From Mobula hypostoma (lineage: Eukaryota), in the NCBI RefSeq assembly GCF_963921235.1, contig NC_086097.1:9424001-9488000 (forward strand): a stretch of 64,000 nucleotides of DNA, read 5' to 3'. Below are positions 254 to 60,459 of the stretch, piece by piece. The notes under the pieces are model-generated. The model had not been told where the DNA came from, did not search any database, and saw nothing but the letters and a program-made list of their open reading frames with translations. The translations under genes and the position numbers were made by a program. Within the stretch, counting starts at the first letter, position 1, and each line of letters begins with the position of its first letter.

Positions 254-666
254 AAGAGGTTCTGCAGATACTGGAAATCCAGAGCAACAAACACAAAATA
301 CTAGAGGAACTCAGTAGCTAAGGCAGTATCCATTGAAATGTATAAACCAGGGTGCCACTCTTACATTTTCTTTTCTCTTCCCCTGCCCATCATCTCACTC
401 TGGTGTCTCTCCTCCTTTCCTTTGTCCCATGGTCTGGTCCATTCTCCTCTCCTATCAGATTCTTTCTTCTTCAGCCCTTTACGCTGTTCATTCAGCACCT
501 CCCAGCGTCTTGTTTCGTCCTCCTCCACCCACCTTCTTATTCCGGCATGTTCCCCCTTCCTTTCTGGTCCTGAAGCAGGGTCTCAGTCCAAGATGTTGAC
601 CATTTATACCTCTACATAGATGATGCCTGACTTGCTGAGTTTCTCCAGTATTTTGTCTGTGTTGCT
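254..666 (+). mobile_element. Penelope-like element (PLE) terminal fragment with inverted arms and a decayed hammerhead motif
   Basis: Left arm ctgcagatactggaaatccagagcaac...gaggaactcag is inverted relative to the right arm (~600-666). It has a pyrimidine-rich tract like that at 49900-50130 and a hammerhead relic tggtc-ctgaagca...gacca at 565-602. Confidence 0.75.
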
Positions 667-754: not shown

Positions 755-1030
755 CAACACTTATATTCCTTCTGGGTCACCTCCAAACTGATGGCATGAA
801 TATTGATTTCTCCTTCCGGTAAAATATTTTTCCCCACTCTGGTCCCTTACCACTTCACCTTCCAGCTATTCTCCATCCCCTCCCCCCACCTTTTTATTCT
901 GGCATCTTCCCCCTTCCTTTCCAGTCCTGGAGTAGAATCTCGGTCCAAAACATTTACTGTTTGCTCATTTCCATCGACGCTGTCTGAGCGGCTGCGTTCC
1001 TCCAACATTTTCTGTGCGTTGCTTTGGATG
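755..1030 (+). mobile_element. PLE 3' fragment
   Basis: ctccaaactgatggcatgaatattgatttctcc encodes LQTDGMNIDFS, the same C-terminus as at 49860-49895. It is followed by a decayed hammerhead (922-959) and the terminal repeat. Confidence 0.75.
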
Positions 1031-3132: not shown

Positions 3133-3590
3133 GGCACACGGTAGCATAGAGGTTAGCGTGACGCCACTACAGTTCGAAGTATGAAGCTCAATTTCGGCGC
3201 CATCTGTAAGGAGTTTGTACGTTTTCCTTGTGAATACAGAGATTTCCTCTGGGTGCTTGGATTTCATCCCACAGTTGAAAGACATACCAATTAGTCAATT
3301 CACAAACATGAGAAAATCTGCAAATGCTAGAAATCCTTGCATATACACAAAATACTGGAGGAACTCAGCAGGCCAGGCAGCATCAATGGCAATGAATAAA
3401 GACTCATAAGTCCTGATGAAGGATCTCAAGCCTGAAAAGTTGACTGCTTACTCTGATCTGTAGGTTAATTGATTTTTGTAAATTACTCTATGATTAGTCT
3501 AGTGTCAAATTGGTGGGTTGCCGGGCATGTTGGGATAGAAGGGCCTGTTCCACACTTTAGCTCTGAATAAAATTTAAAAACTAAAGTAAA
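3133..3590 (+). mobile_element. V-domain SINE interrupted by a PLE-hammerhead unit (~3297-3459)
   Basis: tRNA-like head and V-domain. The SINE body resumes at gtaggttaattg after the insert, which carries ctgatga...gaaa at 3409-3445. Confidence 0.75.
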
Positions 3591-3702
3591 ATAAATGAAT
3601 ATGTAATACAAAAATCAAGATTGATACAAAATTTGGAATAGAAACTGGATCTCATTCAGTCTCGAAATGGGTGGGCTTCAGCAGCAAGAGATGACAAATG
3701 TA

Positions 3703-3759
3703 CACTCAGTGGCCACTTTATTAGGTACAGGAGATATCTAATAAATTGGCCTCTGTGTG
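3703..3759. mobile_element. Short palindromic Tc1/mariner-type MITE
   Basis: TA-cactcagtggccactttattag ... ctaataaattggcctctgtgtg form imperfect inverted termini. Confidence 0.6.
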
Positions 3760-3827
3760 TTTTAAATATTATCCATCGTGAGTAGGTGAGTGGTAAAATC
3801 AGAAGGGTGGGGATTTGATGAGAACAG

Positions 3828-9439: not shown

Positions 9440-9902
9440 AGCATCATCATCAGCACCATTATGTGCCGTGTTACATGGGCAATCATGGGCTCATTTTTCT
9501 GCAGAAGTGGTTTGCCATTGCCTTCTTCTAGGTGGCATCTTTTGAAGCAACACTCACAGCACGCTGGAGGATCTCAGCACGTCGGGCAGCATCTGTGGAA
9601 ACGATCAGTCGACGTTTCAGGCCGGAACACTTCGTCACCCTTCTTTAGAAGATGGGTGACCCTAGCCACATTATCAACACGCTCTAGAGATTGTCTGCCT
9701 GGCGTCAGTGGTCACATAACCAGGACGTGTGATATGCACCAGCTGCTCATACAACCATCCACCACCTGGTCTCATGGCCTCACATAACCCTGATCAGTGG
9801 TGGGGGGGGGGGGCACGGAGAGCTAAGCAAGTGCCACACCTCTCCCAAGGGTAAAGGGAAGGAGTGCCTTATACTTCCTTTGATAGAGAAGTATCTCCAC
9901 CC
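9440..9902 (-). mobile_element. RTE-related non-autonomous element with a PLE-hammerhead insert (9543-9641)
   Basis: Has the gaagtggtttgccattgccttc motif and is homologous to 2075-2415. The insert is flanked by TCTTT. Confidence 0.65.
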
Positions 9903-12632: not shown

Positions 12633-13084
12633 AATAGAACTATAGAAGTATAGAAGTTGTAGAACTATAGAACTATATATTACAGCCTGTGAGAACAAAT
12701 CATTTTTCCTATGCATCTACTGTCAAACGTTAGTATTCTAGCCAAGTTTAAAACAATTACATGGTGTCTCAGCCCATAATAATTACAGAGCTTCCAACAA
12801 AACAAGTCTCCAATTGCTTTGTTGCCTTTTTTGTGTGAGAAAATAATATTAGTGATATTCATTGGGCAGTGCATGCTGTAAACTCATGTTTCCTCAGTAA
12901 TATGGTATAGTCTGTCAGAGAACACGTTCATGCTGTCTGTGTATGTTAAATGGAATCCAGGGGATTTAAATACAAGATCCTTGAAATTCTACAGCACATA
13001 AAAAACATTGATTTGATGATCCATGAGAAGCCTGCGGCAGGTTTATTCAAGGCTGTATAAGAAAGATGTTCTAATAATTAAGTA

Positions 13085-13222
13085 CAGAAGAGATTCTACG
13101 GGTGCTGTGGGAATCCAGAACAACACACACAAAATGCTGGAGGATCTCAGCAGGTCAGGCAGCATCTATGGAAGTGAACAAGCAGTCAATGTTTTGGACT
13201 GAGACCCTTCATCAGGACTGGG
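13085..13222 (-). mobile_element. PLE terminal unit with a CpG-decayed hammerhead
   Basis: Minus strand reads cagtc-ctgatga-agggtctcagtcc-aaaacatt-gactg at 13183-13220. Confidence 0.8.
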
Positions 13223-13242
13223 AAATGAAGCAGCACAACAGC

Positions 13243-16963: not shown

Positions 16964-17282
16964 ACATATAATAAATAAATGAATCTGAATTCAGGAAAAA
17001 TAAATTTGAAGGTTGACGCTGCAGTTCTAGCCTATTTCATTAGCAAATTGTTTACTCAAAACAAATTAAGATACTGCAGATGCTGGAAATCTGAAATTTA
17101 AAAAATGTTGGAAATAGTCAGTCAAACAGCATCTCTGGAGAGTGAAGGAGATCAAACATGCTGGGATGATTCACATTTCATTACTATAGCTTTTAATGAA
17201 AAGTCATTAATCTGATTCTATTTCTCTCTCCACTAATGCTATCTGGCATCGTGCATTTCCAGTATTTTTGATTTTTATTGCT

Positions 17283-17392
17283 CAGTTCTGATGAAAGGTC
17301 TTGGCCTGAATTGTCAACTGTTTGCTCATTTCCATAGATGCTGCCCGACCTGCTGAGGTCCTCCAGCATTTTGTGTGTGTTGCTTTGGATTT
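17283..17392 (+). mobile_element. PLE terminal unit with a hammerhead relic
   Basis: cagtt-ctgatga-aaggtcttggcct-gaatt-gtc-aactg, followed by the terminal repeat. Confidence 0.75.
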
Positions 17393-17546: not shown

Positions 17547-18119
17547 TGGTTGATAAAATCCAATACAAACATGTGACCCTCTTCAACTCTTTGTTATTAT
17601 GTCCTCAGAGAAGTTAGTTAAGCAGAATTTTCCATTTAAAAAAAAATATTATTGACTGTACTTGAATAATCTGCATTTTCCTAAATACTGATTTTTGGTG
17701 TCATTTAAATATATTCCTAATAACTATCCCCAGCTGATGATTGGCTAACAGGGCTTTATTTCCATGATTTATCCTTTTTTTTAAATCAGAGATTACTCAT
17801 CTTCCCGCACCCCCACAACAAACCCATAGCCAATGGGGAGTGAAAAATTAATTGTCTGAGTCCATGCTATTTCTTTCCTTGGTTCTTATTGGAAAGTTCA
17901 ATGTGAAACTGTCCCAATTCCCCCAACAATCTGATTTAATATTTTCCAGGGTTACATCTGCGATGCTGGAAAAGTTACCATCAAGGAGGAGGTACAGGAA
18001 GCTAAGACACACACTCATTGTTGTATGAACAATGCCATCAGATTTCTGAATGGACAATGAACCCACCAACACTACCTACTTATTCATTTTTCTCTTATTG
18101 CACTACTTAATTAATTTAA

Positions 18120-18120
18120 T

Positions 18121-18170
<50 letters not shown>
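18120..18170. repeat. (TA)n(TG)n microsatellite
   Basis: Visible directly in the sequence. Confidence 0.95.
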
Positions 18171-18632
18171 CAAGTATGTGTATATATGGCTAGGGCACGT
18201 AGATAATTTTTATGCATTGCACTGTAATGCTGTCACAAAAAAAACAAATTTTGTCACATATGATAATAAACCCAATTCTGATATGGGTCTGTATTGTGCA
18301 CTGAGAGTGGGAAGGGGGCAAGGAGTGGGGAATAATGGCTGGGAAAAGTGGAAAGGAGATGGGAGGGAGCAGGAAGCACCAGAGAGATATTCTGTAATGA
18401 TCAATAAACTAATTGTTTGGAATCATAACACCTTGCCTGGTGTCTCAGGGCTGGGTGTGTCTGCACCCGTGACATACCCTGCCCTTGGCACTCTTTCTCT
18501 TCCACCTGTCCTACAGCACACCACCCTCGCCATTCCCAACATCTTTTGCTCCTGTCAGATTTCTGAACTTATATATAGTGCCTGTAATTTATAGAGATTA
18601 TTATGTATTTTTTATGTTGTACATTTTATGTT

Positions 18633-25550: not shown

Positions 25551-26096
25551 ATTTAAAGTTCATCATAAAACAAACTGTTGAGTGAACTTATACAAATGCT
25601 GGATGTTACTCCCAAGTTTCCACATTTGGGGTGTCTCTTGTAGGTTCACTTTGGAGGAATTCAGCAGGTCAAGTGACTCATGTAGAGGCAAAGGGATAGG
25701 CAGTAGTTTGGATCAGACCCCACTAAGCACACTGCATCAGTTCTGATGCAGCACCTCAACTATAAACATCGACCATTTATTTGCCTTCATGATGCTGCCT
25801 GACCACAGAGTTCCTTCAAGTTTCAGTTTTACTCCAGATTTCAGCCAGTGCAGTCTCCTGAGTCTTGCTGTCGGTTCAGATTTGTCTATTTAATATGAGG
25901 GAGTTTTGTTTGCTAGCTCTACCCTACTTATTTGCCTTACTGAACAGCAGGATAGCCCAGATCTCCCCAGTTGGTTTGGAAAAAGGGAATTAATTTGCAA
26001 GGAGTCATGGGTACAGTATAAAAAAAATGTACTAACCAGTTGAACCAAATAGCCTTTTTCTAAGAAAGTTCAAAGTACATTTATTATCAAAGTATG

Positions 26097-27007: not shown

Positions 27008-27145
27008 ATAAACACCAGGAATTCTGCAGATGCTGGAAATTCAAGCAGCACACATCAAAGTTGCTGGTGAACGCAGCAGGCCAGGCAGCATCTCTAGGTA
27101 GAGGTACAGGTGACGTTTCGGGCCAAGACGCTTCGTCAGGACATG
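27008..27145 (-). mobile_element. PLE-derived hammerhead unit
   Basis: 10-bp TSD ACATGAACTC. Minus strand reads gtc-ctgacga-agcgtcttggccc-gaaac-gtc. Confidence 0.85.
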
Positions 27146-29345: not shown

Positions 29346-29914
29346 TTAATATTTTTGTATAAATCTTACATTTTATTTTCTATGCACGCAGCTCTCTAGC
29401 CTTTATCTTTCAATTTATGCAGGCATGATTTCTGCTTTCACATAATTATTTTGTTTCCTTTTTCTGAGGTATTTGTTTCTTTCTCACTTGCAAAAAGTGT
29501 GTGCAACTCTTGTTATAGTCTCTTTTTCTCTGCAGATTCTTAATTTCCTTACTCTTGTTGCTGAACAATTTCCAAAACCCCTTCCTTTCATTTCTCTGCA
29601 ACACACACAAAATGCCGGAGGAACTCAGCAGGTCCTGCAGCATCTATGGAAATGAGTAAACAGTTGCTGTTTTGGGGTGAGACCCTTCATCAAGGCTCAT
29701 AAAGTCAGGACTCAAAGTCCTCGAAACTTCGATAATTCACTTTACCAACTCTAGATGGGATATAAATGGAGGAGAGCTAGGAAGCTGCAGGTGACTGTTA
29801 TTTAACAGAGAAGTATCCCAGCTTTTGTAACTCCAGGTTGTATCAAAACCTCAGGGTGTGCTGCCAACAGGAATTGCTCCTGAATTTAAAAGAGCAACAC
29901 TCCATTACCAGACC

Positions 29915-30102
29915 AATGCACACAAAATGCTGGAGGAACTCAGCAGGTCAGGCAGCATCTATGGAAATGAATCTTTCATCAAGACTACCCGAAATGCCGA
30001 ATGTTTACTCAGTTCCATAGATGCTGCCTGACCTGCAGAGTTCCTCGGGCATTTTGAGTGTGTTGCCCTGGATTTCCAGCATCTGCAGAGTCTCTTGAGT
30101 TT
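29915..30102. mobile_element. Palindromic PLE terminal unit with a collapsed centre
   Basis: aaaatgctggaggaactcagcaggtcaggcagcatctatggaa is inverted to ttccatagatgctgcctgacctgcagagttcctc. Another single arm lies at 29598-29696. Confidence 0.8.
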
Positions 30103-39011: not shown

Positions 39012-39171
39012 AAAAACGTAAACACGAGGAATTCTGCAGATGCTGGAAATTCAAGCAACACACATCAAAGCTGCTGGTGAACGCAGCAGGCCAGGCAGCA
39101 TCCCTAGGAAGAGGTACAGTCGACGTTTCGGGCCGAGACCCTTCGTCAGGAGGGTGTGTGATGTGTGTTTC
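39012..39171 (-). mobile_element. PLE-derived hammerhead unit inserted in the LTR
   Basis: 13-bp TSD TTTTTCTTTGTTT; absent from the related solo LTRs. Confidence 0.85.
39116..39152 (-). ncRNA. Minimal type I hammerhead ribozyme motif (best-preserved core, stem I truncated)
   Basis: Minus strand reads tc-CTGACGA-A-GGGT-CTCG-GCCC-GAAAC-GTC-gactg. All catalytic core nucleotides are present; activity is untested. Confidence 0.7.
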
Positions 39172-49050: not shown

Positions 49051-52000
49051 AAAGCCTTCACATCTTTTCAGTGTGGAGGTGACTAGAATTGCACACAATA
49101 CTTCAAGTGCGACCTAAGTTTTATCAAAATGCACAATTATTTCCATACCTTTCTACTCAATGCCTCTAATATATTGGGGGACAATACATTAGTTACCTAA
49201 AATATTTGTTTCAAGAACTTAATACAATTTAATAACATGGTACAATCCTTTCCTTTCCAGAATATTAGAGATTGCCTCTTTCTTCAAGTTTCCCTTCCTC
49301 CACCATTGATGCTGCCCTCACCCACATCTCATCCATTTCCTGGACATCTGCACACATTCCACCTTCCCACTATCTTAACAGTCATGGAGTTTCTCTTGGC
49401 CTTACTAATCATCCCATGAGCCTCTGCATCTGACGCATTATTTTCCACAAGGGACCTTACAACTAACCACATCCTTATCTTTCCAAAGAGATCACTTCCT
49501 CAGTGATTCCCTTGTCTATTCATTTTTCCCAACTAATCTACCTTCAGGCAGTTATTCCTGCAAATGGCCAAAGTGCTACACCTACCCTTTCACCTCTGAC
49601 CTAACCTCTATTCAGGGTCCGAAACAGTCCTTCCAAGTGAGCCAACACATCCCCTGCAAATCTGCTGCGGTTGTCTATGGTGTCCAGTGCTCCCGATGCA
49701 GCCTCCATCTGCCAAAAGTGGAACTTCCCAGTAGCCAAACATTGTAATTCTGATTCCCATCCCTGTTCTGACGTGTCAGTCCATGGCCTCTTCTTGTGCC
49801 AGGATGAGACCACTCTCTGCATGGAGGAGCACCACCTTATATTCCATCTGTGTAGCCTCCAAATTGATGGCATGAATATTGATTTTTCCTTCCAGTAATT
49901 ATTTTTCCTCACCCTCCCCTCTTCTTCAATTCCCCACTCTGGCCTCTTACTGCTTCTGACCAGCATATCACCCCCACCTTGCCTTTCTCCTATGTTCCAC
50001 TCTCCTATCCTATCAGATTCTTCCCACTCCAGCTCTTTACCTTTCCCACCCACCTGACTTCACCTATCAAGTTCTATCTATCTACTTCTCCTCCCCCCAC
50101 CTCTTTAGTCTGGCATTTTCCCCCTTTTTTCTAGTCCTGAAGACTTGTCTTGGCCTGAAACATTGACTATTTATTCAATTTCATACAGTGCTGATAAAAA
50201 TTATTCACCCCCTCCTCCAGAAGTTTTCTTGTTTCATTGTTTTACAACATTGAATCACAGTGGATATAACCTGACATTTTTTTGACACTGATCAATAGAA
50301 AAAGACTATTTTGGGTTAAAGTGAAAACAGATCTCTACAAAGTGATCTAAAATAATTACATATATAAAACACAAAATAATTGATTGCATAAGTGTCACTC
50401 CATTTAATATGACACATCAAATCATCACTGCTGCCGCCAGTTGGTTTTAGAAGTCACATAATTAGTTAAATGGAGATCTGTTTTTGGAGACCTGTGTGCA
50501 ATCAAGGTGTTTCAATTGATTGTAATAAGAATACACCTGTTTCTGGAAGGTCCAACTGTGGGTGAGTCAGTATCCTGACAAAAGCTACACCATGAAGACA
50601 AAAGAAAACTCCAAGCAATTCTGCAAAAAGGTTATTGAACAGCCAAGTCAAAAGCTGGATACAAGAAAATGTCCAAGTCACTGAATATCCCTTGGAGTAC
50701 AGTTAAGTCAATCATCAAGAAATGGAAAGAATATGGCACAGCTGTAAATCTGACTAGAGCAGCCCATCCTCAAAAACTGAGTGACCGTGCAAGAAGTGGA
50801 CTAGTGAGGGAGGCCACGAAGAGACCAGTGACAGCTCTGGAGGAGTTACAAGCTTCAGTGCCTGAGATTGGAGAGACTGCACATACAACAACTGTTTCCC
50901 AGGCGCTTTATCAGTCACAGCTTTATGGGAGAGTGGCAAAGAGAAAGCACTACTGAAAAAAGCTCACATGAAGTATTGGCTAGAGTTTGCCAGAAAGCGT
51001 GTGGGAGACTTTGGCATCAGCTGGAAGAAAATTCTATGGTCTGATGAAACTAAAACTGAGCTTTTTGGCCATCAGACTAAAGGCTTTGTTTGGCATATGC
51101 CAAACACCACATATCATCAAAAAAAAAACACCATCCCTACTCTGAAGCATACTGGTGGTTGCGTCATACTCTGGAGAAGCTTCAGACTTTGGTCCAAATA
51201 AGAATTTGTGGCTGGACATGAATAGAGTTGTTCACTCATCATCCCCATGCAATCTGACAGAGCTTCAGCAGTTTTGTAAAGGAGAATGGGGAAACATCCA
51301 GTGTCCAGACATGCAAACTGATAGAGATCTATCCACACAGACTCAAGGCTGTAATTGCTGCCAAAGGTGCATCTACTAAATACTGATTTGAAGGGGGTGA
51401 ATACTTAAGACCACAAGACCATAAAACAATAAGATATAGGAGCAGAAGTGGGCCATTCGGCCCATCGAGTCTGCTCTGCCATTCAATCATGGGCTGATGC
51501 AATTATTCCAGTTATCCCCACTCCCCTGCTTTCACCCCATGCCCATTGATGCCCTGGATAATCAAGAACCTATCTATCTCTACCTTAAATACACCCAATA
51601 CCTTGGTGTCCACAGCCACTCGTGACAACAAATTCCACAGATTTACCATCCTCTGACCAAAGTAATCTCTCCGCATATCAGTTCTAAAAGGACGTCCTTC
51701 AATCCTGAAGTTGAGCCCACTTGTCCTAGAATCCCCTACCATGGGAAATAACTTTGCAATATCTAATCTGTTCAGGTCTTTTAACATTCTGATTGTTTCT
51801 ATGAACTCCAGGGAATACAGCCCAAGAGCTGCCAGAGGTTCCTCATATGGTAACACTTTAATTCCTGGAATCATTCTTGTGAATCTTCTCTGAACCCTCT
51901 CCAATGTCATTATATCCTTTCTAAAATAAGGAGCCCAAAAAGTGTGGTCTCACGAGTGCCTTATAGAGCCTCAAAATCACATCCCTGCTTTTATATTCTA

Positions 52001-52150: not shown

Positions 52151-52980
52151 AATAATAATAATGGTCTGACACCAGTAGAGAAGTGGTTATTGGTGAACTC
52201 ACAACACGCTGGAGGAACCCAGCAGGTCGGGCAGCATCCGTGGAAAAGATCGGTCGACGTTTCGGGCCGGAACCCTTTCTCAGGACGAAGGGTTCCGGCC
52301 CGAAACGTCGACAAATCTTTTCCACGGATGCTGCCTGACCTGCTGAGTTCCTCCAGCGTGTTGTGAGTGTTGCTTTGACCCCAGCATCTGCAGATTATTT
52401 TGTATTGGTGAACTCACAGTCCCCTGGGAAGAAAACATTGATGAAGCCTATGAGCGCAAGTTAACCAAATATGCAGAATTAAGATCGGAGTGCAGAGACA
52501 GAGGGTGGAAGGTCTCATACTATCCATTCGAAGTAGGCTGCCATGGGTCTATTGTGTTCACTCTCCAGAAGTGGCTGTGTGACCTTGGCTTCACTAGAAG
52601 AGAGATCAAGTTAACCAGCAGGGCTGTAGCTGAGGCAGCAGAGACAGGATCAGCATGGGTGTGGACCAAGTATGTCCAGAGGGGCAGATAGTCGGACAGC
52701 GTATACATCTTTTACAAACCCTTCAGTAGTTGCATAGACACCTGAAGAGTAGATTATCTGTTGGATGGAAGCGAGCAACAACTCTGATAGAGGCAGGTGC
52801 CAAGTTTTTAAGCTCACCAGTAAGAGGTTGTGCTTTAGCACTGCTGGCCCACCACCTCAAAGGAGTCTTGATCATAAGTGGGCTGGAACTCCTGAAGACA
52901 GGTGGCAGATCAACTGATGATCCCACTGGTGATAGCACGGGACAGTTAACATCTTAGTCCACGTGTATTTTCAATTCAAT
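52151..52980 (+). mobile_element. HERO-like (R2 superfamily) 3' fragment encoding a restriction-like endonuclease
   Basis: After removing the 52204-52402 insert and one TSD copy, the frame from 52162 to 52691 reads WSDTSREVVIGELTVPWEENIDEAYERKLTKYAEL..GWKVSYYPFEVGCHG..AAETGSAWVWTK*. It has a TTCAA-repeat tail and TCTA at both flanks. Confidence 0.85.
52204..52402. mobile_element. Near-perfect palindromic PLE-hammerhead unit
   Basis: Inverted arms of about 85 bp centred near 52285-52295, with a 16-bp TSD TATTGGTGAACTCACA. Confidence 0.9.
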
Positions 52981-55696
52981 TCTACCCATTTATTTCTTCC
53001 ACCAAAGTGTATGACCGTACACTTTCCCACATTGTATTTCATCTGCCACTTTTTTGCCCATATCCCTAAACTATCTAAGTCTCCCTGCAGGCTCTCTGTT
53101 TCCTCAACACTATCCACTCCTCCACATATCTTTGTATCATTGACAAATTTAGCCACAAATCCATGAATACCGTAGTCCAAATCATTGATATACATCGTAA
53201 AAAGCAGCTGTTCCAACACTGACCTCTGGGGAACTCCACTGGTAACCAGCAGCCGGCCAGAAAAGGATCCCTTTATTCCTACTCTCTGTATTCTGCTGAC
53301 TAGCCAATGCTCCACCCATGTTAGTAACTTCTGGGTAAGTTCATGGGCTCTTATCTTGCTAAGCAGCCTCATGTGCGGCACCTTGTCAAAGGCCTTCTGA
53401 AAATCCAAGTACACCATGTCTACTGCATCTCCTTTGTCTACCCTGCTTGTAATTTCCTCAAAGAATTGCAGTAGGTTTGTCAGGCAGTATTTTCCTTTCA
53501 GGAAACCATGCTGGCTTTGGCCTATCTTGTCATGTGCCTCCAGGTACTCTGTAATCTCATCCCTAACAATCGATTCCAACAACTTCCCAACCACTGATGT
53601 CAGGCTAACAGGTCTATAGTTTCCTTTCTGCTGCCTCCCACCCTTCTTAAATAGTGGAGTAACATTTGCAATTTTCCAGTCATCCAGTACAATGCCAGAA
53701 TCTATAGATTCTTGAACGATCATCGTTAATGCTTCCTTCATAACCGGAGGGTGCATTCCATCAGGTCCAGGAGATTTATCCACCCTCAGACCATTAAGCT
53801 TCCGGAGTGCCTTCTCAGTCGTAATTTTCGCTGCACAAACTTCACTTCCCTGATACTCTTGAATGTCCAGTATAAGTAGATGTCTTCCACCGTAAAGCCT
53901 GATGTAAAATACACATTCAGTTCCTCTGCCATCTCTGCATCTCTCATTACAATATCTCCAGTGTCATTTTGTATTGGTCCTATATGTACCCTCAGCTCCC
54001 TTTTACCCTTTATATTCTGAAAAATACTTTTAGTATCTTCTTTGATATTAGCCACCAGCTTCCTTTCATAATTCATCTTTTCCTTCTTAATGATCTTCTT
54101 AGTTTCCTTCTGCAAGTTTTTAAAAACTCCTCAATCCTCTACCTTCCCACTAGCTCTGGCTTCCTTGTATGCCCTCTCTTTTGCTTTTACTTTGGCTCTG
54201 TCTTCACTTGTCAGCCACAGTAGTGTCCTTCTTCCCTTTGAAAATTTCTTATTTTGAATATATCTCTCTTGTACTTCCCTCATTTTTTGCAGAAACTCCA
54301 GCCATTGTTACTCTGCTGTCTTTCCTGCAAACGTCCTTTTCCAGTCAACTTTGGCCAGTTCCCCTCTCATGCCATTGTAGTTTCCTTTATTCCACTGAAA
54401 TACTGACACATTGGATTTTATTTTTTCCCTCTCAATTTTCAATGACATTGATGAGATACTTTGAGAGATTGGTTATGACTAGACTGAACTCCTGCATCAG
54501 CAAGGACCTGGACCCATTGCAATTTGCCTATCATCACAATAAGTCAATGGCAGACGTAATCTCCATGGCTCTTCACACGGCTTTAGACCACCTTGACAAC
54601 ACAAACACCTATGTCAGGACGCTGTTCATTGACTATAGCTCAGTATTTAATACCGTCATTCCCACAATCCTGATTGAGAAGTTACAGAACCTGGGCCTCT
54701 GTAGCTCCCTCTGTAATTGGATCCTCGACTTCCTAACCAGAAGACCACAATCTGTGCAGATTGGTGATAACATATCCTATTCGCTGACGATCAACACTGG
54801 CACACCTCAGGGGTGTGTGCTTAGTCCACTGCTCCACTCTCTATATACACATGAGTGTGTGGCTAGGCATAGCTCAAATACCATCTATAAATTTGCTGAC
54901 AATACAACCATTGTTGGTAGAATCTCAGGTGGTGACGAGAGGGTGTACAGGAGTGAGATATGCCAACTAGTGGAGTGGTGTCACAGCAACAACCTGGCAC
55001 TCAATGTCAGTAAGACGAAAGAGCTGATTGTGGACTTCAGGAAGGGTAAGACGAAAGAGCACGTACCAAACCTCATAGAGAGATCAGAAGTGGAGAGAAT
55101 GAGCAGCTTCAAGTTCCTGGGTGTCAAGATCTCTAAGGATCTAACCTGGTCCCAACATATTGATGTAGTCATAAAGAGGGCAAGACAGTGGCCATACTTC
55201 ATTAGGAGTTTGAAGCGATTTGGCATGTCAACAAATACACTCAAAAACTTCTATAGTTGTACCGTGGAGAGCATTCTGACAGGCTGCATCACTGTCTGGT
55301 ATGGAGGGGCTACTGCACAGGACCGAAAGAAACTGCAGAGGGTTGTAAATCTAGTCAGCTCCATCTTGGGCACAAGCCTACAAAGTACCCAGGACATCGG
55401 GAGCAGTGTCTTAGAAAGGCAGGGTCTCGGCCTGAAACGTCGACTGCGCCTCTTCCTATAGATGCTGCTTGGCCTGCTCCGTTCACCAGCAACTTTGATA
55501 TATGTTGACCATTATTAAAGACCTCCAGCACCCAGGGCATGCCCTTTTCTCACTGTTACCATCTGGAAGGAGATACAGAAGCCTGAAGGCATACACTCAG
55601 CAATTCAGAAACAGCTTCTTCCCCTCTGCCATCTGATTCCTAAATGGACTTTGAAGCTTTGGACATTATCTCACTTTTTTAATATACAGTATTTCT

Positions 55697-58619: not shown

Positions 58620-60459
58620 ACAGTATTTCTATTTTTGCACATTTTTAATCATCTATTCAATATATGTAATTGATTTACTTGTTTATTTATTATGTTTTAT
58701 TTTATTTATTATTTTTTTTCTCTCTCTTGGCTAGATTATGTATTGCATTGAACTGCTGCTGCTAAGTTAACAAATTTCACGTCACATGCCGATGATAATA
58801 AACCTGATTCTGATTCTGATTCTGGTGTGAACTCGATCATTTTGTGATCACTGTTTCCTAAGGGTTCCCTAACCTTAAGCTCTCTTATCACCTCTGGATC
58901 ATTGCACAACACCCAATCCAGCACAGCCGATCCCCTCATGGGCTCAACAACAAGCTGTTCTGAAAAGCCATCCCTTAGACATTCTACAAGTTCACTCTCT
59001 TGACGTTCAGTACTGGCCTGGTTTTCCCAATCCACTTTCATGTTAAAATCCCCAACGATTATCATGACATTGCCTTTCTGACACACCTTTTCTATCTCCT
59101 GCCATAATTTGTAGTCCACATCCCGGCTGCTGTTTCGAGGCCTGTATACAACTGCCATTAGGTTCCTTTTACCCTTGCCATTTCTTAACTCAACCCACAG
59201 AGACTCTACACTTTCCGATCCTATGTCATCACTTTCCAATGATTTAATATCATTTCTTATACACAGAGCCACACCACCCTCTCTGCCTACTAACCTATCT
59301 TTCTGATATACTGTATATCCTTGGAAATTCAGCTCCCAATGGCAGCTGTCCTTCAGCCAAGTTTCAGAATGGCCACAACGTCATATCTGTCAATCTGTAG
59401 CTAAATTTCAAGATCGTCCATTTTATTCCTTATGTTGTGTGCATTCAGATGCAATACTCTCAGTCCAGTATTAGTTGCTTTCTGTTTCAACTGCACCACA
59501 CCTCTATTGCCCTGTAACTCATGCCACTGGGTTTGATTAAGCCTCATTTCCTGCCTGTTCTTTCTATTATCTCTGTTGCACACTATCCTTGATTTATTTC
59601 TGTTTTACTCCGGTTCCCATCCCCCTGCCAAATTAGTTTAAACCCTCCCTAAGAGCTCTATTAAATGTGCCCACTGGGACCCCTTTTGTACAGGTCATAC
59701 CTCCCCCAGAACACGATCCAATGATCCAGAAATCTGAATCCTTGCTCCCTGCACCAGTCTCTCAGCCACACATTAATATGCCTGATCATGCTATTCCTGC
59801 ACTCGTTAGCACGCGGCACAGGCCGCGATCCTGAGATTACTGCCCTAGAGGTCCTGCCTTTCGGCTTCCTACCCATCTCCCTAAATTCTCTCTTCAGGAA
59901 CTCACACGTTTTTCTACCTATATCATTGGTACCAATGTGTACTGTACCAAGATTTCTGGCTGTTCACCCTCTCCGTTCAAAATACTCTGCACCCGATCCA
60001 AGACATCCCGTACCCTAGCACCTGGGAGGCAACACACCATGCAGGTATCTCTATCAGGCTGATAGAACTTCCTGTCTGTTCCCCTCAATATGGAATCCCC
60101 TATGACTACCCCATTCCTCTTCTTCCTCTTTCCCTTCTGCACTTTTGCACCACTTATGCAATTATTTTATCTCTTATGTTTGAAATTAATTTAGATCACT
60201 TTGTAGAGATCTTTTTACAATGTGACCTGAAGGAGTCTCTTTCTGTTGATGAGTGTCAAAAAAGCCAAATTAAATCCACTGTGATTCAACGTAGTAAAAC
60301 AATAAAACATGAATACTTCCAAGGGGAGTGAATACTTTCTATAGGCACTGTACATGCTGCCTAACCTACCAGCATTTTGTGTGTTTTGCTTTGAATTTCC
60401 AGCAATAACAGAAATTCTTTTGTAAACAATCTCCATCCTGTTTGTCAAGGCTTGAAGAG

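What the first reader, a model, noticed from the sequence alone, without database searches (positions are those of the whole stretch)
39116..39152. Family of minimal hammerhead ribozyme motifs dispersed through the window
Seen in the sequence: about 14 copies of one ~38-nt motif, at 565, 922, 3409, 9606, 13183, 17283, 25737, 27107, 29661, 39116, 50132, 55421 and twice at 52253-52312. The consensus is CAGUC-CUGAYGA-A-GGGU(CUCG)GCCC-GAAAC-GUC^GACUG. This gives the complete hammerhead core (CUGANGA, GAAA, GUC), a 5-bp stem I, a 4-bp stem II with an extra A after A9, and a stem III reduced to the palindrome ACGU. At 50132 the motif directly follows a GIY-YIG coding region. Established: Penelope-like elements carry minimal type I hammerheads that need dimerisation. 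Inference: this is the self-cleaving module of a very abundant chondrichthyan repeat. No copy here has both a perfect core and a full stem I; this one has the best core.
Basis: partly seen in the sequence, partly recalled or inferred. Interest (0 to 1): 0.8.

Follow-up and report, generated by a model that had tools for sequence, protein, structure and literature searches.

The report
Hammerhead ribozyme motifs of Penelope-like retroelements
The repeated 38-base motif is real and is the small hammerhead ribozyme motif that Penelope-like jumping genes carry near their ends, a known kind of element that is extremely abundant in this cartilaginous-fish genome.

Summary
Observation confirmed. All 14 listed copies exist. 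A covariance model built here finds 13 of them. The copy at 39114-39151 lies on the minus strand and has a complete hammerhead core.

Interpretation supported. The motif sits about 300 nt after the stop of an RT + GIY-YIG ORF and about 100 nt before the 3' end of a Penelope-like element (PLE). Complete units form head-to-tail tandems of about 3.5 kb with the motif in each flanking repeat.

It has the published traits of the PLE "min-HHR" (Cervera & de la Pena 2014, PMC4209133): a 5-bp helix I, an extra nucleotide after A9, and no loop III (palindrome ACGU). That architecture predicts activity only as a dimer.

Genome-wide there are 109,266 copies within 2 mismatches of the 33-mer, against 0 for the reversed control. 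Many ORFs are still open.

The window's own copies are dead: they are 5'-truncated or CpG-decayed. Cleavage could not be tested, because no raw RNA reads were available. None of 14 mapped 5' ends lies at the cleavage site. The most successful lineage has U instead of C at 11.1.

This is a known kind, so interest is modest. The scan found the same kind earlier in another shark-type genome (e1-7788964).

The parts
39114..39151 (-). Hammerhead motif of the finding. The core is complete (CUGACGA / GAAA / ACGU / C17), helix II is 4 bp with G10.1-C11.1, and only 2 nt of the helix I 5' strand remain.
   Evidence: 46.2 bits, E 3e-10
39019..39151 (-). The whole PLE copy that holds the motif: a 133-nt 5'-truncated 3' end (hammerhead plus about 100-nt tail). 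It starts 2 nt before C3.
   Evidence: nhmmer (E 2.1e-45, profile 59-191); sequence
27104..27142 (-). Second young copy with an intact core. Helix II has 3 bp, and the copy is truncated 3 nt before C3. The full copy spans 27010-27142.
564..609 (+). Decayed hammerhead copy with 4 core mismatches and an indel in helix I. The PLE 3' UTR is present upstream (copy 515-670).
921..964 (+). Decayed copy with 4 core mismatches, mostly CpG decay (copy 879-1025).
3407..3447 (+). Copy with 1 core mismatch. It abuts an inverted tail fragment at 3303-3391(-), forming a fold-back arrangement.
9603..9638 (-). Copy of a third subfamily (loop II UCCG). It is truncated at C3 (copy 9541-9637).
13177..13226 (-). 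Older-subfamily copy (N7 = U, helix I CAGUC/GACUG) with 2 core mismatches from CpG decay (copy 13084-13220).
   Evidence: 57.1 bits
17282..17325 (+). Older-subfamily copy with 2 core mismatches. Helix I keeps 5 bp through a U-A pair in place of C-G (copy 17283-17390).
25737..25778 (+). Most decayed copy: 3 core mismatches and helix II lost. The covariance model does not find it.
   Evidence: (E 0.075); absent
29656..29699 (-). Decayed copy with 4 core mismatches (copy 29594-29699).
50132..50170 (+). Copy with 1 core mismatch. It lies in the 3' UTR of the decayed PLE whose GIY-YIG remnant is upstream.
49409..49898 (+). Decayed Zn-finger linker and GIY-YIG endonuclease coding remnant of a PLE, in two frames. 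It is 54% and 63% identical to the young element's protein.
   Evidence: E 1e-22; E 7e-28. Pfam itself found nothing in these pieces.
52248..52289 (-). Left arm of a head-to-head (fold-back) pair, with 1 core mismatch (copy 52197-52289).
52280..52316 (+). Right arm of the fold-back pair. The junction lies inside the CUGANGA box (copy 52281-52406).
55419..55449 (+). Copy truncated inside the core (it starts at helix II). It belongs to the U11.1 lineage that carries the open ORFs (copy 55419-55516).

Best explanation
The motif is the minimal type I hammerhead ("min-HHR") carried in the pseudo-LTR of a canonical, endonuclease-bearing Penelope-like retroelement (PLE).

Anatomy (shown):
- A unit of about 3.5 kb reads: hammerhead, 60 nt, first ATG, ORF of up to 1043 codons (RT, CX4CX2C linker, GIY-YIG), about 300-nt 3' UTR.
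- Then comes the next hammerhead plus a roughly 100-nt tail that already belongs to the next unit's 5' end.
- Because insertions are 5'-truncated, the last 130 nt (hammerhead + tail) is the most frequently kept part. This is why the window holds 14 motif copies but only one coding remnant.
- The window copies are dead remnants, either truncated at helix I or CpG-decayed.

How it works (inferred, from the anatomy and from published work on other PLEs):
- Helix III is only the loop-less palindrome ACGU, so one copy cannot close the three-way junction.
- Two copies can pair ACGU with ACGU and exchange helix I strands. The two copies could be the two pseudo-LTRs of a tandem transcript, or two RNAs.
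- Cleavage would then follow GUC, 60 nt before the ATG.
- I put about 0.5 on real, probably protein-assisted, dimer-dependent cleavage of multimeric PLE transcripts in vivo.
- Every genomic copy keeps the cleavage site joined to the tail, so the RNA that is reverse-transcribed is uncleaved (or re-ligated) at its 3' hammerhead.
For: Identity of the element:
- The GIY-YIG coding end, stop codon and 3' UTR lie directly upstream of the motif in 4 of 7 aligned young copies.
- GIY-YIG reaches the Pfam cutoff in one copy (23.6 against 22.6 bits).
- RVT_1 and GIY-YIG both hit one 670-aa frame, each below its curated cutoff.
- 2,868 homologues were found, with RT and GIY-YIG domains among the precomputed Pfam families of the listed ones.

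Pseudo-LTR arrangement:
- L028 and L029 carry the motif 3,512 and 3,520 nt apart on either side of the ORF.
- 16 of 30 copies that hold the ORF start run on upstream through a hammerhead.

min-HHR traits (against the text of PMC4209133):
- Core complete.
- Helix I of 5 bp.
- An extra A after A9 in 19 of the 20 aligned copies.
- ACGU with no loop.
- 86.5% of helix cells paired, against 17-41% when the partner is slid.

Selection:
- Between diverged subfamilies only the coding region and the hammerhead + tail stay alignable. The 3' UTR between them does not.
- In the youngest family, copies varying only at 5 core positions number 1,233. Copies varying only at 5 helix II/loop II positions number 2,216. 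Both are counted on a base of 39,061 exact copies.

Activity:
- By my count, 26 of 150 scored matches have an open frame of exactly 1043 codons.
- 36 of 44 hammerheads found in the 41 ORF-bearing loci examined have an intact core.
Against: Cleavage was not observed, and several results do not favour it:
- No Rfham hammerhead model matches, even at E <= 10. This is expected for a motif without helix III.
- Of the 14 (out of 30) ORF-bearing copies with a mappable 5' end, none starts at the cleavage site. The ends lie at reference positions 106-478, with the cut after 351.
- The most successful lineage has U at 11.1: 39,061 exact copies against 5,864 with C, and 41 of 44 motifs in ORF-bearing loci. 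This weakens the G10.1-C11.1 pair that the 2014 paper lists as typical.
- Nearest-neighbour folding prefers a competing GACG/CGUC pairing that buries the core.
- In Anolis, the PLE hammerhead was not needed for insertion in vitro, and no RNA-seq ends mapped to its cut site (PMC11167929, passages).
- Naiad PLEs thrive without hammerheads (PMC8557442, passages).
Confidence: 0.9

Rival explanations
1. The motif descends from a hammerhead but is kept mainly as part of the RNA that the element's reverse transcriptase recognises. In this reading it acts as an anchor or template-boundary structure beside the tail where reverse transcription starts, and self-cleavage is incidental or absent in vivo.
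For: - Hammerhead and tail are conserved together as one block between subfamilies.
- All genomic copies are uncleaved at the site, and 0 of 14 mapped 5' ends lie at it.
- The U11.1 lineage amplified most.
- 5' ends pile up at the helix I 5' strand. By my reading, about 17 of the 100 listed young copies end within 7 nt before C3, against about 4 in the 13 nt further upstream.
- 3 of the 14 mapped boundaries lie at reference 320-335.
- Five window copies begin at or inside the core, from 3 nt before C3 to helix II: 9603, 27104, 39114, 52280 and 55419.
- In Anolis the hammerhead cleaved only when the protein was added, which suggests the protein acts on it, and core mutants did not affect insertion.
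Against: - Five catalytic-core positions vary 1.8 times less than five helix II/loop II positions among about 40,000 young copies. A pure binding site need not show this.
- The exact catalytic core is conserved across PLEs of all eukaryotic kingdoms, and fungal PLE hammerheads cleave well.
Confidence: 0.3
2. The dispersed short copies belong to a separate non-autonomous element: a SINE-like or retrozyme-like RNA of about 130 nt (hammerhead + tail) that parasitises the PLE machinery. On this reading they are not simple 5'-truncated PLE copies.
For: - Many copies start at the helix I 5' strand.
- Head-to-tail arrays of very short hammerhead units exist: 45 pattern matches, with periods of 40, 51-67 and 122 nt, and five identical 40-nt units in L067.
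- A 2026 preprint argues that animal retrozymes derive from PLE pseudo-LTRs (10.64898/2026.07.22.740005; abstract and Results part 1 read).
Against: - About 79 of the 100 listed young copies continue upstream into the PLE 3' UTR.
- The 5' ends in that list are spread over several positions rather than one.
- Tandem arrays are rare: 45 pattern matches against more than 10^5 dispersed copies.
- The L067 array sits inside a fold-back copy and can be explained by slippage between short GTAC repeats.
Confidence: 0.1
3. The match to the hammerhead consensus within a repeat is a chance resemblance.
For: No Rfam hammerhead hit.
Against: All 14 core positions, both helices and the specific min-HHR oddities (extra nucleotide after A9, palindromic 15.2-16.2) coincide, and they do so at the place in a PLE where the literature puts them.
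Confidence: 0.01

Closest known systems
min-HHR of metazoan Penelope-like elements (Cervera & de la Pena 2014, Mol Biol Evol, PMC4209133; whole main text read)
   Same: - Location in the PLE flanking repeats.
- Helix I of 4-5 bp.
- An unpaired nucleotide between A9 and 10.1.
- No helix III loop and a palindromic 15.2-16.2, hence a predicted dimer.
- Mostly dispersed single copies from truncated elements.
- Pairs on opposite strands close together.
   Different: - Helix II here is 4 bp, against 6-8 bp in the Schistosoma and Drosophila examples described there.
- Copy number is more than ten times the highest counts given there (about 4,000 in coelacanth, about 9,000 in Xenopus).
- The dominant lineage has U11.1.
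- Cartilaginous fishes are not named in that paper's main text ('shark', 'Callorhinchus' and 'cartilaginous' each occur 0 times). Its supplements were not opened.
Poseidon PLE of Anolis carolinensis (PAc) and its hammerhead (Mob DNA 2024, PMC11167929; passages read)
   Same: - The hammerhead lies at the pseudo-LTR/ORF border.
- Reverse transcription starts inside the RNA and leaves a 'tail'.
- Genomic copies end past the hammerhead.
   Different: - In PAc the ORF starts inside helix II and the cut site is 26 bp after the start codon. Here the cut site lies 60 nt before the first ATG.
- Biochemistry exists for PAc and none exists for this element.
Non-LTR retrozymes: tandem type I hammerhead repeats of animals (NAR 2020, PMC7229834, seen in the search listing only; bioRxiv 10.64898/2026.07.22.740005, abstract and Results part 1 read)
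   Same: A type I hammerhead with a weak helix III. A few loci here are head-to-tail arrays of short hammerhead units. The preprint derives retrozymes from PLE pseudo-LTRs.
   Different: The window's copies are dispersed single 3' ends of an autonomous PLE, not tandem arrays. The 40-nt unit in L067 is shorter than the 51-972 bp range given in the preprint.
Dimer-dependent hammerheads of newt satellite 2 and viroid-like RNAs (Forster et al. 1988, as cited; paper not read)
   Same: An unstable helix III, so that two copies form a double hammerhead.
   Different: Those have a short helix III with a loop. Here there is no loop at all.

Membership tests
Hammerhead ribozyme (catalytic motif) | Conserved core: C3 U4 G5 A6 N7 G8 A9, G12 A13 A14, the A15.1-U16.1 pair, and H17 at the cleavage site | tested here: met
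   0 mismatches in 2 of 14 window copies (39114-39151 and 27104-27142). The genome holds 5,864 + 39,061 exact 33-mers.
Hammerhead ribozyme (catalytic motif) | Three helices around the core within one molecule | tested here: not met
   Helices I (5 bp) and II (4 bp) are present in complete copies. Helix III is only A15.1-U16.1 and C15.2-G16.2 with no loop, so it cannot close in cis. This is the defining departure of the min-HHR subtype.
Hammerhead ribozyme (catalytic motif) | Match to a curated Rfam hammerhead covariance model | tested here: not met
   No hammerhead family at gathering score or at E <= 10 over the whole window.
Hammerhead ribozyme (catalytic motif) | Site-specific self-cleavage after position 17 | not testable with these tools
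   The listed runs are kept as contigs only and none is on record as RNA.
PLE min-HHR (Cervera & de la Pena 2014) | Lies in the flanking repeats (pseudo-LTRs) of a PLE | tested here: met
   The motif flanks the ORF on both sides in L028 and L029. 16 of 30 ORF-start loci run through an upstream copy.
PLE min-HHR (Cervera & de la Pena 2014) | An unpaired nucleotide between A9 and 10.1 | tested here: met
   A in 19 of the 20 aligned copies and C in one.
PLE min-HHR (Cervera & de la Pena 2014) | Conserved G10.1-C11.1 pair | tested here: inconclusive
   G-C in the finding's copy and in 5,864 exact copies. G-U in 39,061 exact copies and in 41 of 44 motifs of ORF-bearing loci. With U11.1 the extra A could instead pair as A-U in a shifted register; that is my reading and was not tested.
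PLE min-HHR (Cervera & de la Pena 2014) | Palindromic 15.2-16.2 with no or minimal loop III, giving a dimeric active form | tested here: met
   ACGU in all intact copies. Dimer activity itself was not testable. Cofolding favours a dimer by about 8 kcal/mol, but in an extended duplex rather than the double hammerhead.
Canonical EN+ Penelope-like element | A single ORF with RT followed by a C-terminal GIY-YIG endonuclease | tested here: met
   RVT_1 and GIY-YIG hit one 670-aa frame, each below its curated cutoff. GIY-YIG scores 23.6 bits against a cutoff of 22.6 in L013. Open frames reach 1043 codons. Homologues carry RT and GIY-YIG families in their precomputed Pfam columns.
Canonical EN+ Penelope-like element | Partial tandems forming pseudo-LTRs, adjacent inverted 5'-truncated copies, and a terminal 'tail' | tested here: met
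   Tandems. Inverted pairs: window 52248-52316 and 3303-3447; L002, L008, L009, L010 and L031. Two recurrent 3' ends lie about 67 and about 100 nt past the cut site, in 2 and 7 of 10 loci.
Canonical EN+ Penelope-like element | Assignment to a named clade (Neptune, Penelope/Poseidon, Nematis) | not tested
   No tree was built. The linker reads C-x4-C-x2-C, which fits the CX2-5CxxC linker that PMC8557442 links with Neptune (passage). This is a lead only.
Non-LTR retrozyme | Head-to-tail arrays of short hammerhead-bearing units | tested here: not met
   None of the 14 window copies is in a direct tandem. Elsewhere in the genome there are only 45 pattern matches, one of which (L067) was examined.

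The most novel reading that the evidence does not exclude
The hammerhead + tail block works as the reverse transcriptase's anchor and template boundary, much as a template-boundary helix does for telomerase, the closest relative of PLE reverse transcriptases (that comparison is recalled, not from a call).

On this reading the enzyme sits on the folded hammerhead, starts in the tail and very often stops at the helix I 5' strand. That would explain three things:
- The pile-up of 5' ends there: by my reading about 17 of the 100 listed young copies end within 7 nt before C3, 3 of the 14 mapped boundaries lie at reference 320-335, and five window copies begin at or inside the core.
- By my reading, five of nine distinct short-unit arrays have a unit that begins 4-5 nt before C3.
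- A lineage with a weakened 10.1-11.1 pair could still make 39,061 identical copies.

Self-cleavage would then be a side activity. It would also explain why PLEs keep catalytically poor hammerheads.
Probability: 0.12. Interest if true: 0.65.

Novelty: new member of a known kind. Interest (0 to 1): 0.3.

Why it matters
It settles the finding. The dispersed motif is not a new ribozyme class but the known hammerhead of Penelope-like retroelements, here in a ray-like genome.

Three things make this genome useful for an open question, namely what PLE hammerheads do in vivo:
- The family is huge and young: 109,266 near-consensus copies, and about 1% variation per non-CpG site among about 40,000 copies.
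- Many ORFs are still open.
- Two natural variants (C11.1 and U11.1) and natural tandem arrays are available for direct comparison.

The published cleavage tests on animal PLE hammerheads read here gave low activity. RNA-end mapping in this species could therefore be informative.

Tried and rejected
- Rfam at gathering score and at E <= 10 gave no hammerhead family. The hits were low-complexity or hairpin noise.
- A strict CTGATGA...GAAAC pattern gave 0 hits, because the intact window copies have N7 = C and the others are decayed.
- Folding of monomers, dimers and the 40-nt array was not decisive. The energy model cannot represent the hammerhead core, and it prefers a GACG/CGUC pairing or an extended duplex.
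- Test for cleaved templates: if cleaved RNA were the template, full-length copies should begin at G1.1. None of the 14 mapped 5' ends does. L027 and L030 begin about 12 and about 43 nt after the cut site.
- Sequencing runs: no RNA holder is listed and all 22 runs are kept as contigs.
- Laying four of those runs gave no table of molecule ends. The tool states that contig depth cannot rank parts of a stretch, so I draw nothing from the depth profile or from uncovered parts.
- Covariation in helices I and II is weak: 4 pairs have a double change, each in one decayed copy. Decayed copies evolve neutrally, so I do not lean on this.
- Per-column conservation in 20 copies shows core non-CpG positions at 0.90-0.97 against 0.83 for the tail. 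The sample is too small to weigh.
A full genome scan and a large unbiased sample of copies were therefore not possible.
- Literature searches found no paper on hammerhead ribozymes in cartilaginous fishes. Searches were hammerhead + shark + Penelope, hammerhead ribozyme with six chondrichthyan terms (where none of the 20 listed papers holds the ribozyme term), and Penelope + elasmobranch. The exception is one unnamed chondrichthyan species in the 2026 retrozyme preprint. Supplements of the 2014 paper and of the preprint were not seen and may list such species.
Full report
**1. The observation**

The stretch 39116-39152 holds the motif on the minus strand. Window 39114-39151(-) reads UCCUGACGAAGGGUCUCGGCCCGAAACGUCGACUGUAC.

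I built a profile from the 3' region of clean genomic copies and ran it with nhmmer. It gives 20 hits in the window:
- Six hold only the downstream tail: 256-337, 3303-3391, 17072-17143, 29914-29967, 29988-30102 and 60337-60423.

A covariance model with helices I and II (alignment A1 of 18 natural copies) was searched with filters off:
- It finds 13 of the 14 at E <= 1.2e-4. Seven of those were in the seed and match by construction.
- It misses the most decayed copy at 25737.
- It adds one chance-level hit (38380, E 0.77).

Chance is excluded:
- The 28-nt pattern with up to 3 mismatches gives 2 hits against 0.00 expected.
- In the 3.48-Gb genome the 33-mer with up to 2 mismatches occurs 54,736 + 54,530 times, against 0 + 0 for the reversed control.
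- Six arbitrary 10-kb stretches from other contigs hold six more motif-bearing copies.

Rfam gives no hammerhead hit at gathering score or at E <= 10.

**2. State of the window copies**

- Only 39114-39151(-) and 27104-27142(-) have all 14 core positions intact.
- Both begin 2-3 nt before C3, so the 5' strand of helix I is missing.
- The other twelve carry 1-5 core mismatches or truncations. Many mismatches are CG-to-TG or CG-to-CA changes at the motif's four CpGs.
- All window copies are dead remnants.

**3. What the repeat is**

*Coding region and layout.*
- Around exact genomic copies (L001-L010), the sequence upstream of the motif is, in 4 of 7 aligned copies, the end of a coding region, then a stop codon, then about 300 nt of C/T-rich 3' UTR.
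- That coding region reads ...VIYCVRCSRCGLLYIGETRRRLGDRF...GMNIDFSNFR.
- Pfam calls GIY-YIG at 23.6 bits against a cutoff of 22.6 in one copy.
- RVT_1 and GIY-YIG both hit one continuous 670-aa frame, each below its cutoff.
- A protein search returns 2,868 relatives. The listed ones carry RT and GIY-YIG families among their precomputed domains.
- The closest named relatives come from rays and sharks: Mobula hypostoma 88-94%, Hypanus sabinus 78-81%, Chiloscyllium punctatum 67-71%, Rhincodon typus 71%.

*Complete units.*
- Complete units were fetched. In L028 and L029 the motif stands on both sides of the ORF, 3,512 and 3,520 nt apart.
- In L028 the upstream neighbour is another unit ending in GIY-YIG.
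- The cut site (after GUC) lies 60 nt before the first ATG of the long frame.
- Genomic copies end about 100 nt past the cut site, just inside the next unit's frame, in 7 of 10 loci. They end about 67 nt past it in 2 of 10 and earlier in 1.

*Upstream extent and fold-backs.*
- Of 30 copies that hold the ORF start, 16 run on upstream through a hammerhead into the 3' UTR sequence. The other 14 stop at scattered points.
- Head-to-head (fold-back) pairs are frequent: window 52248-52316 and 3303-3447; L002, L008, L009, L010 and L031.

*Match to the literature.* RT + C-terminal GIY-YIG, pseudo-LTRs from partial tandems, adjacent inverted 5'-truncated copies and a terminal tail are the published description of canonical Penelope-like elements (PMC8557442, passages; PMC6765202, passages).

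*The window's coding remnant.* The window holds a decayed remnant at 49409-49898. It is 54% and 63% identical to the young protein (E 7e-28 and 1e-22). The motif at 50132 follows about 235 nt later, in the 3' UTR.

**4. Comparison with the published motif**

Cervera & de la Pena 2014 (PMC4209133, main text read) describe minimal hammerheads in the flanking repeats of all PLEs. They list these traits:
- Helix I of 4-5 bp.
- A conserved G10.1-C11.1 pair.
- Palindromic 15.2-16.2.
- No or minimal helix III, so that only a dimer can be active.
- Low activity in vitro.

Here:
- Helix I is UAGUC/GACUG in the young family and CAGUC/GACUG in an older one.
- The extra nucleotide is A in 19 of 20 copies.
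- Helix II is GGGU/GCCC closed by CUCG.
- GAAAC is followed at once by GUC, which gives the loop-less palindrome ACGU.
- On alignment A1, 86.5% of helix cells pair, against 17-41% when the 3' partner is slid by 1-3 columns.

So this is a member of that subtype. It is not a hammerhead in the strict three-helix, single-molecule sense, which also explains the blank Rfam result.

**5. Signs of constraint**

- Between the young family and diverged subfamilies, blastn aligns only the GIY-YIG coding part and the hammerhead + tail. The roughly 280-nt 3' UTR between them is not alignable in the copies that span both.
- Within the youngest family, the exact 33-mer occurs 39,061 times.
- Letting five core positions (G5, A6, G12, A13, A14) vary adds 1,233 copies.
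- Letting five helix II/loop II positions vary adds 2,216. That is 1.8 times more.
- My estimate is that base composition can explain only about 10% of this difference.
A few amplified sub-lineages could also produce it.

**6. Signs against an essential cleavage role**

- Every genomic copy has the cut site joined to the tail. The reverse-transcribed RNA is therefore uncleaved, or re-ligated, at its 3' hammerhead.
- None of the 14 mapped 5' ends of ORF-bearing copies lies at the cut site. The ends are at reference positions 106, 116, 152, 156, 205, 265, 275, 320, 330, 335, 408, 460, 475 and 478, and the cut is after 351.
- The ORF-bearing lineage has U at 11.1 in 41 of 44 motifs found in the 41 loci examined.
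- That variant is 6.7 times more common as an exact 33-mer than the C11.1 form: 39,061 against 5,864. A C-to-U change in the pair the 2014 paper calls highly conserved did not stop amplification.
- In Anolis, hammerhead core mutants did not affect insertion in vitro, cleavage needed the protein, and no RNA-seq ends mapped to the site (PMC11167929, passages).
[quoted passage not shown] Those authors raise the idea that hammerheads may simply parasitise PLEs.

**7. Most likely mechanism**

*Shown:* the anatomy above.

*Inferred:*
- A single copy is inactive because helix III cannot close.
- Two copies could pair ACGU with ACGU and swap helix I strands, giving two active sites. The two copies could be the two pseudo-LTRs of a tandem transcript, adjacent units of an array, or two RNAs.
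- The cut would release an RNA that starts 60 nt before the ATG.
- The copy at the 3' end must stay uncut to keep the tail where reverse transcription starts.
- I give about 0.5 to real, probably protein-assisted cleavage in vivo.
- I give about 0.3 to a mainly structural or recognition role.
- The identity as a PLE min-HHR stands at about 0.9 either way.

**8. Activity of the family**

- Of 150 scored matches to the ORF's first 200 residues, 26 by my count have an open frame of exactly 1043 codons. About 50 have 1000 or more.
- A subset has a 935-codon frame that ends before the GIY-YIG part, which there lies in another frame. This holds for 4 of 4 such copies examined.
- 36 of the 44 hammerheads found in the 41 ORF-bearing loci examined have an intact core.
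- About 1% variation per non-CpG site among about 40,000 copies points to a recent burst.

**9. Things seen on the way**

*5' ends cluster at the helix I 5' strand.*
- In the first 100 listed young copies, 21 have a boundary within 20 nt before C3. About 17 of those lie within 7 nt (my reading).
- That list slightly under-samples boundary copies, because of the H letter at the pattern's end.
- 3 of the 14 mapped boundaries lie at reference 320-335.
- Five window copies begin at or inside the core.

*Rare head-to-tail arrays of very short units exist.*
- There are 45 pattern matches, with periods of 40, 51-67 and 122 nt.
- L067 holds 5.1 identical 40-nt units inside a fold-back copy.
- In such an array, neighbouring ACGU palindromes could form helix III in cis.
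- The array can also be explained by slippage between short GTAC repeats created by the fold-back.

*A splice-acceptor-like signal.* A pyrimidine tract ending in CAG stands directly before helix I in both main subfamilies, with ACTAAC a few bases upstream in some young copies. In Drosophila virilis the PLE intron ends at the 5' end of helix I. No spliced copy was seen among the 16 contiguous upstream repeats.

**10. Verdict**

- This is a new member of a known kind.
- Interest is modest (0.3). The value lies in the size, youth and natural variants of the family as material for testing what PLE hammerheads do.

Noticed in passing
genome list; loci L043, L063, L065; window 27142, 39151, 9638: 5' ends of copies pile up at the 5' strand of helix I. 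By my reading, about 17 of the 100 listed young copies end within 7 nt before C3, against about 4 in the next 13 nt upstream. No explanation was tested; an RT stop, an RNA 5' end or a transcription start are all possible.
   Followed up: partly
L067:113-316 (G000 contig C190); other places listed: Head-to-tail arrays of very short hammerhead units exist (periods 40, 51-67 and 122 nt; 45 pattern matches genome-wide). L067 has 5.1 identical 40-nt units between an inverted and a direct PLE tail. The 40-nt unit is shorter than the 51-bp minimum given for retrozyme consensus lengths in the 2026 preprint.
   Followed up: partly
L027-L030 against the table: Two classes of long open frame occur. The 1043-codon class includes GIY-YIG (26 of 150 scored matches by my count). 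The 935-codon class ends before GIY-YIG, which then lies in another frame (4 of 4 such copies examined). Whether the second class is a dead sub-lineage moved in trans was not examined.
   Followed up: no
directly 5' of helix I, e.g. L029:2296-2318; window 13221-13235(-): A pyrimidine tract ending in CAG, with ACTAAC a few bases upstream in some young copies, resembles a 3' splice site. It sits where the Drosophila virilis PLE intron ends. No spliced copy was seen among 16 upstream repeats.
   Followed up: partly
window 52197-52406, 3303-3447, 29914-30102; L002, L008, L009, L010, L031: These are head-to-head (fold-back) pairs of 5'-truncated PLE ends with variable junctions.
   Followed up: partly
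window 50639-51201 (+): Stop-to-stop frames here read like a Tc1/mariner-type transposase (…WSDETKTELFGHQ…), just downstream of the PLE remnant. The family name is my recollection; no search was run.
   Followed up: no
window 3698-3764: A 67-nt near-perfect hairpin scores on both strands against the mir-9256 model (33.0 and 30.1 bits, far below the gathering score of 80). It is probably a palindromic repeat rather than a microRNA.
   Followed up: no
window 18022-18192: A (GT)n microsatellite gives spurious sub-threshold hits to the mir-297 and SCARNA7 models.
   Followed up: no
L011:1239-2735 (+): An open 499-aa reverse-transcriptase frame of a different, LINE-like element lies 3 kb upstream of a PLE copy. 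On the opposite strand a further hammerhead copy lies next to it, at 3650-3677 in plus-strand coordinates.
   Followed up: no
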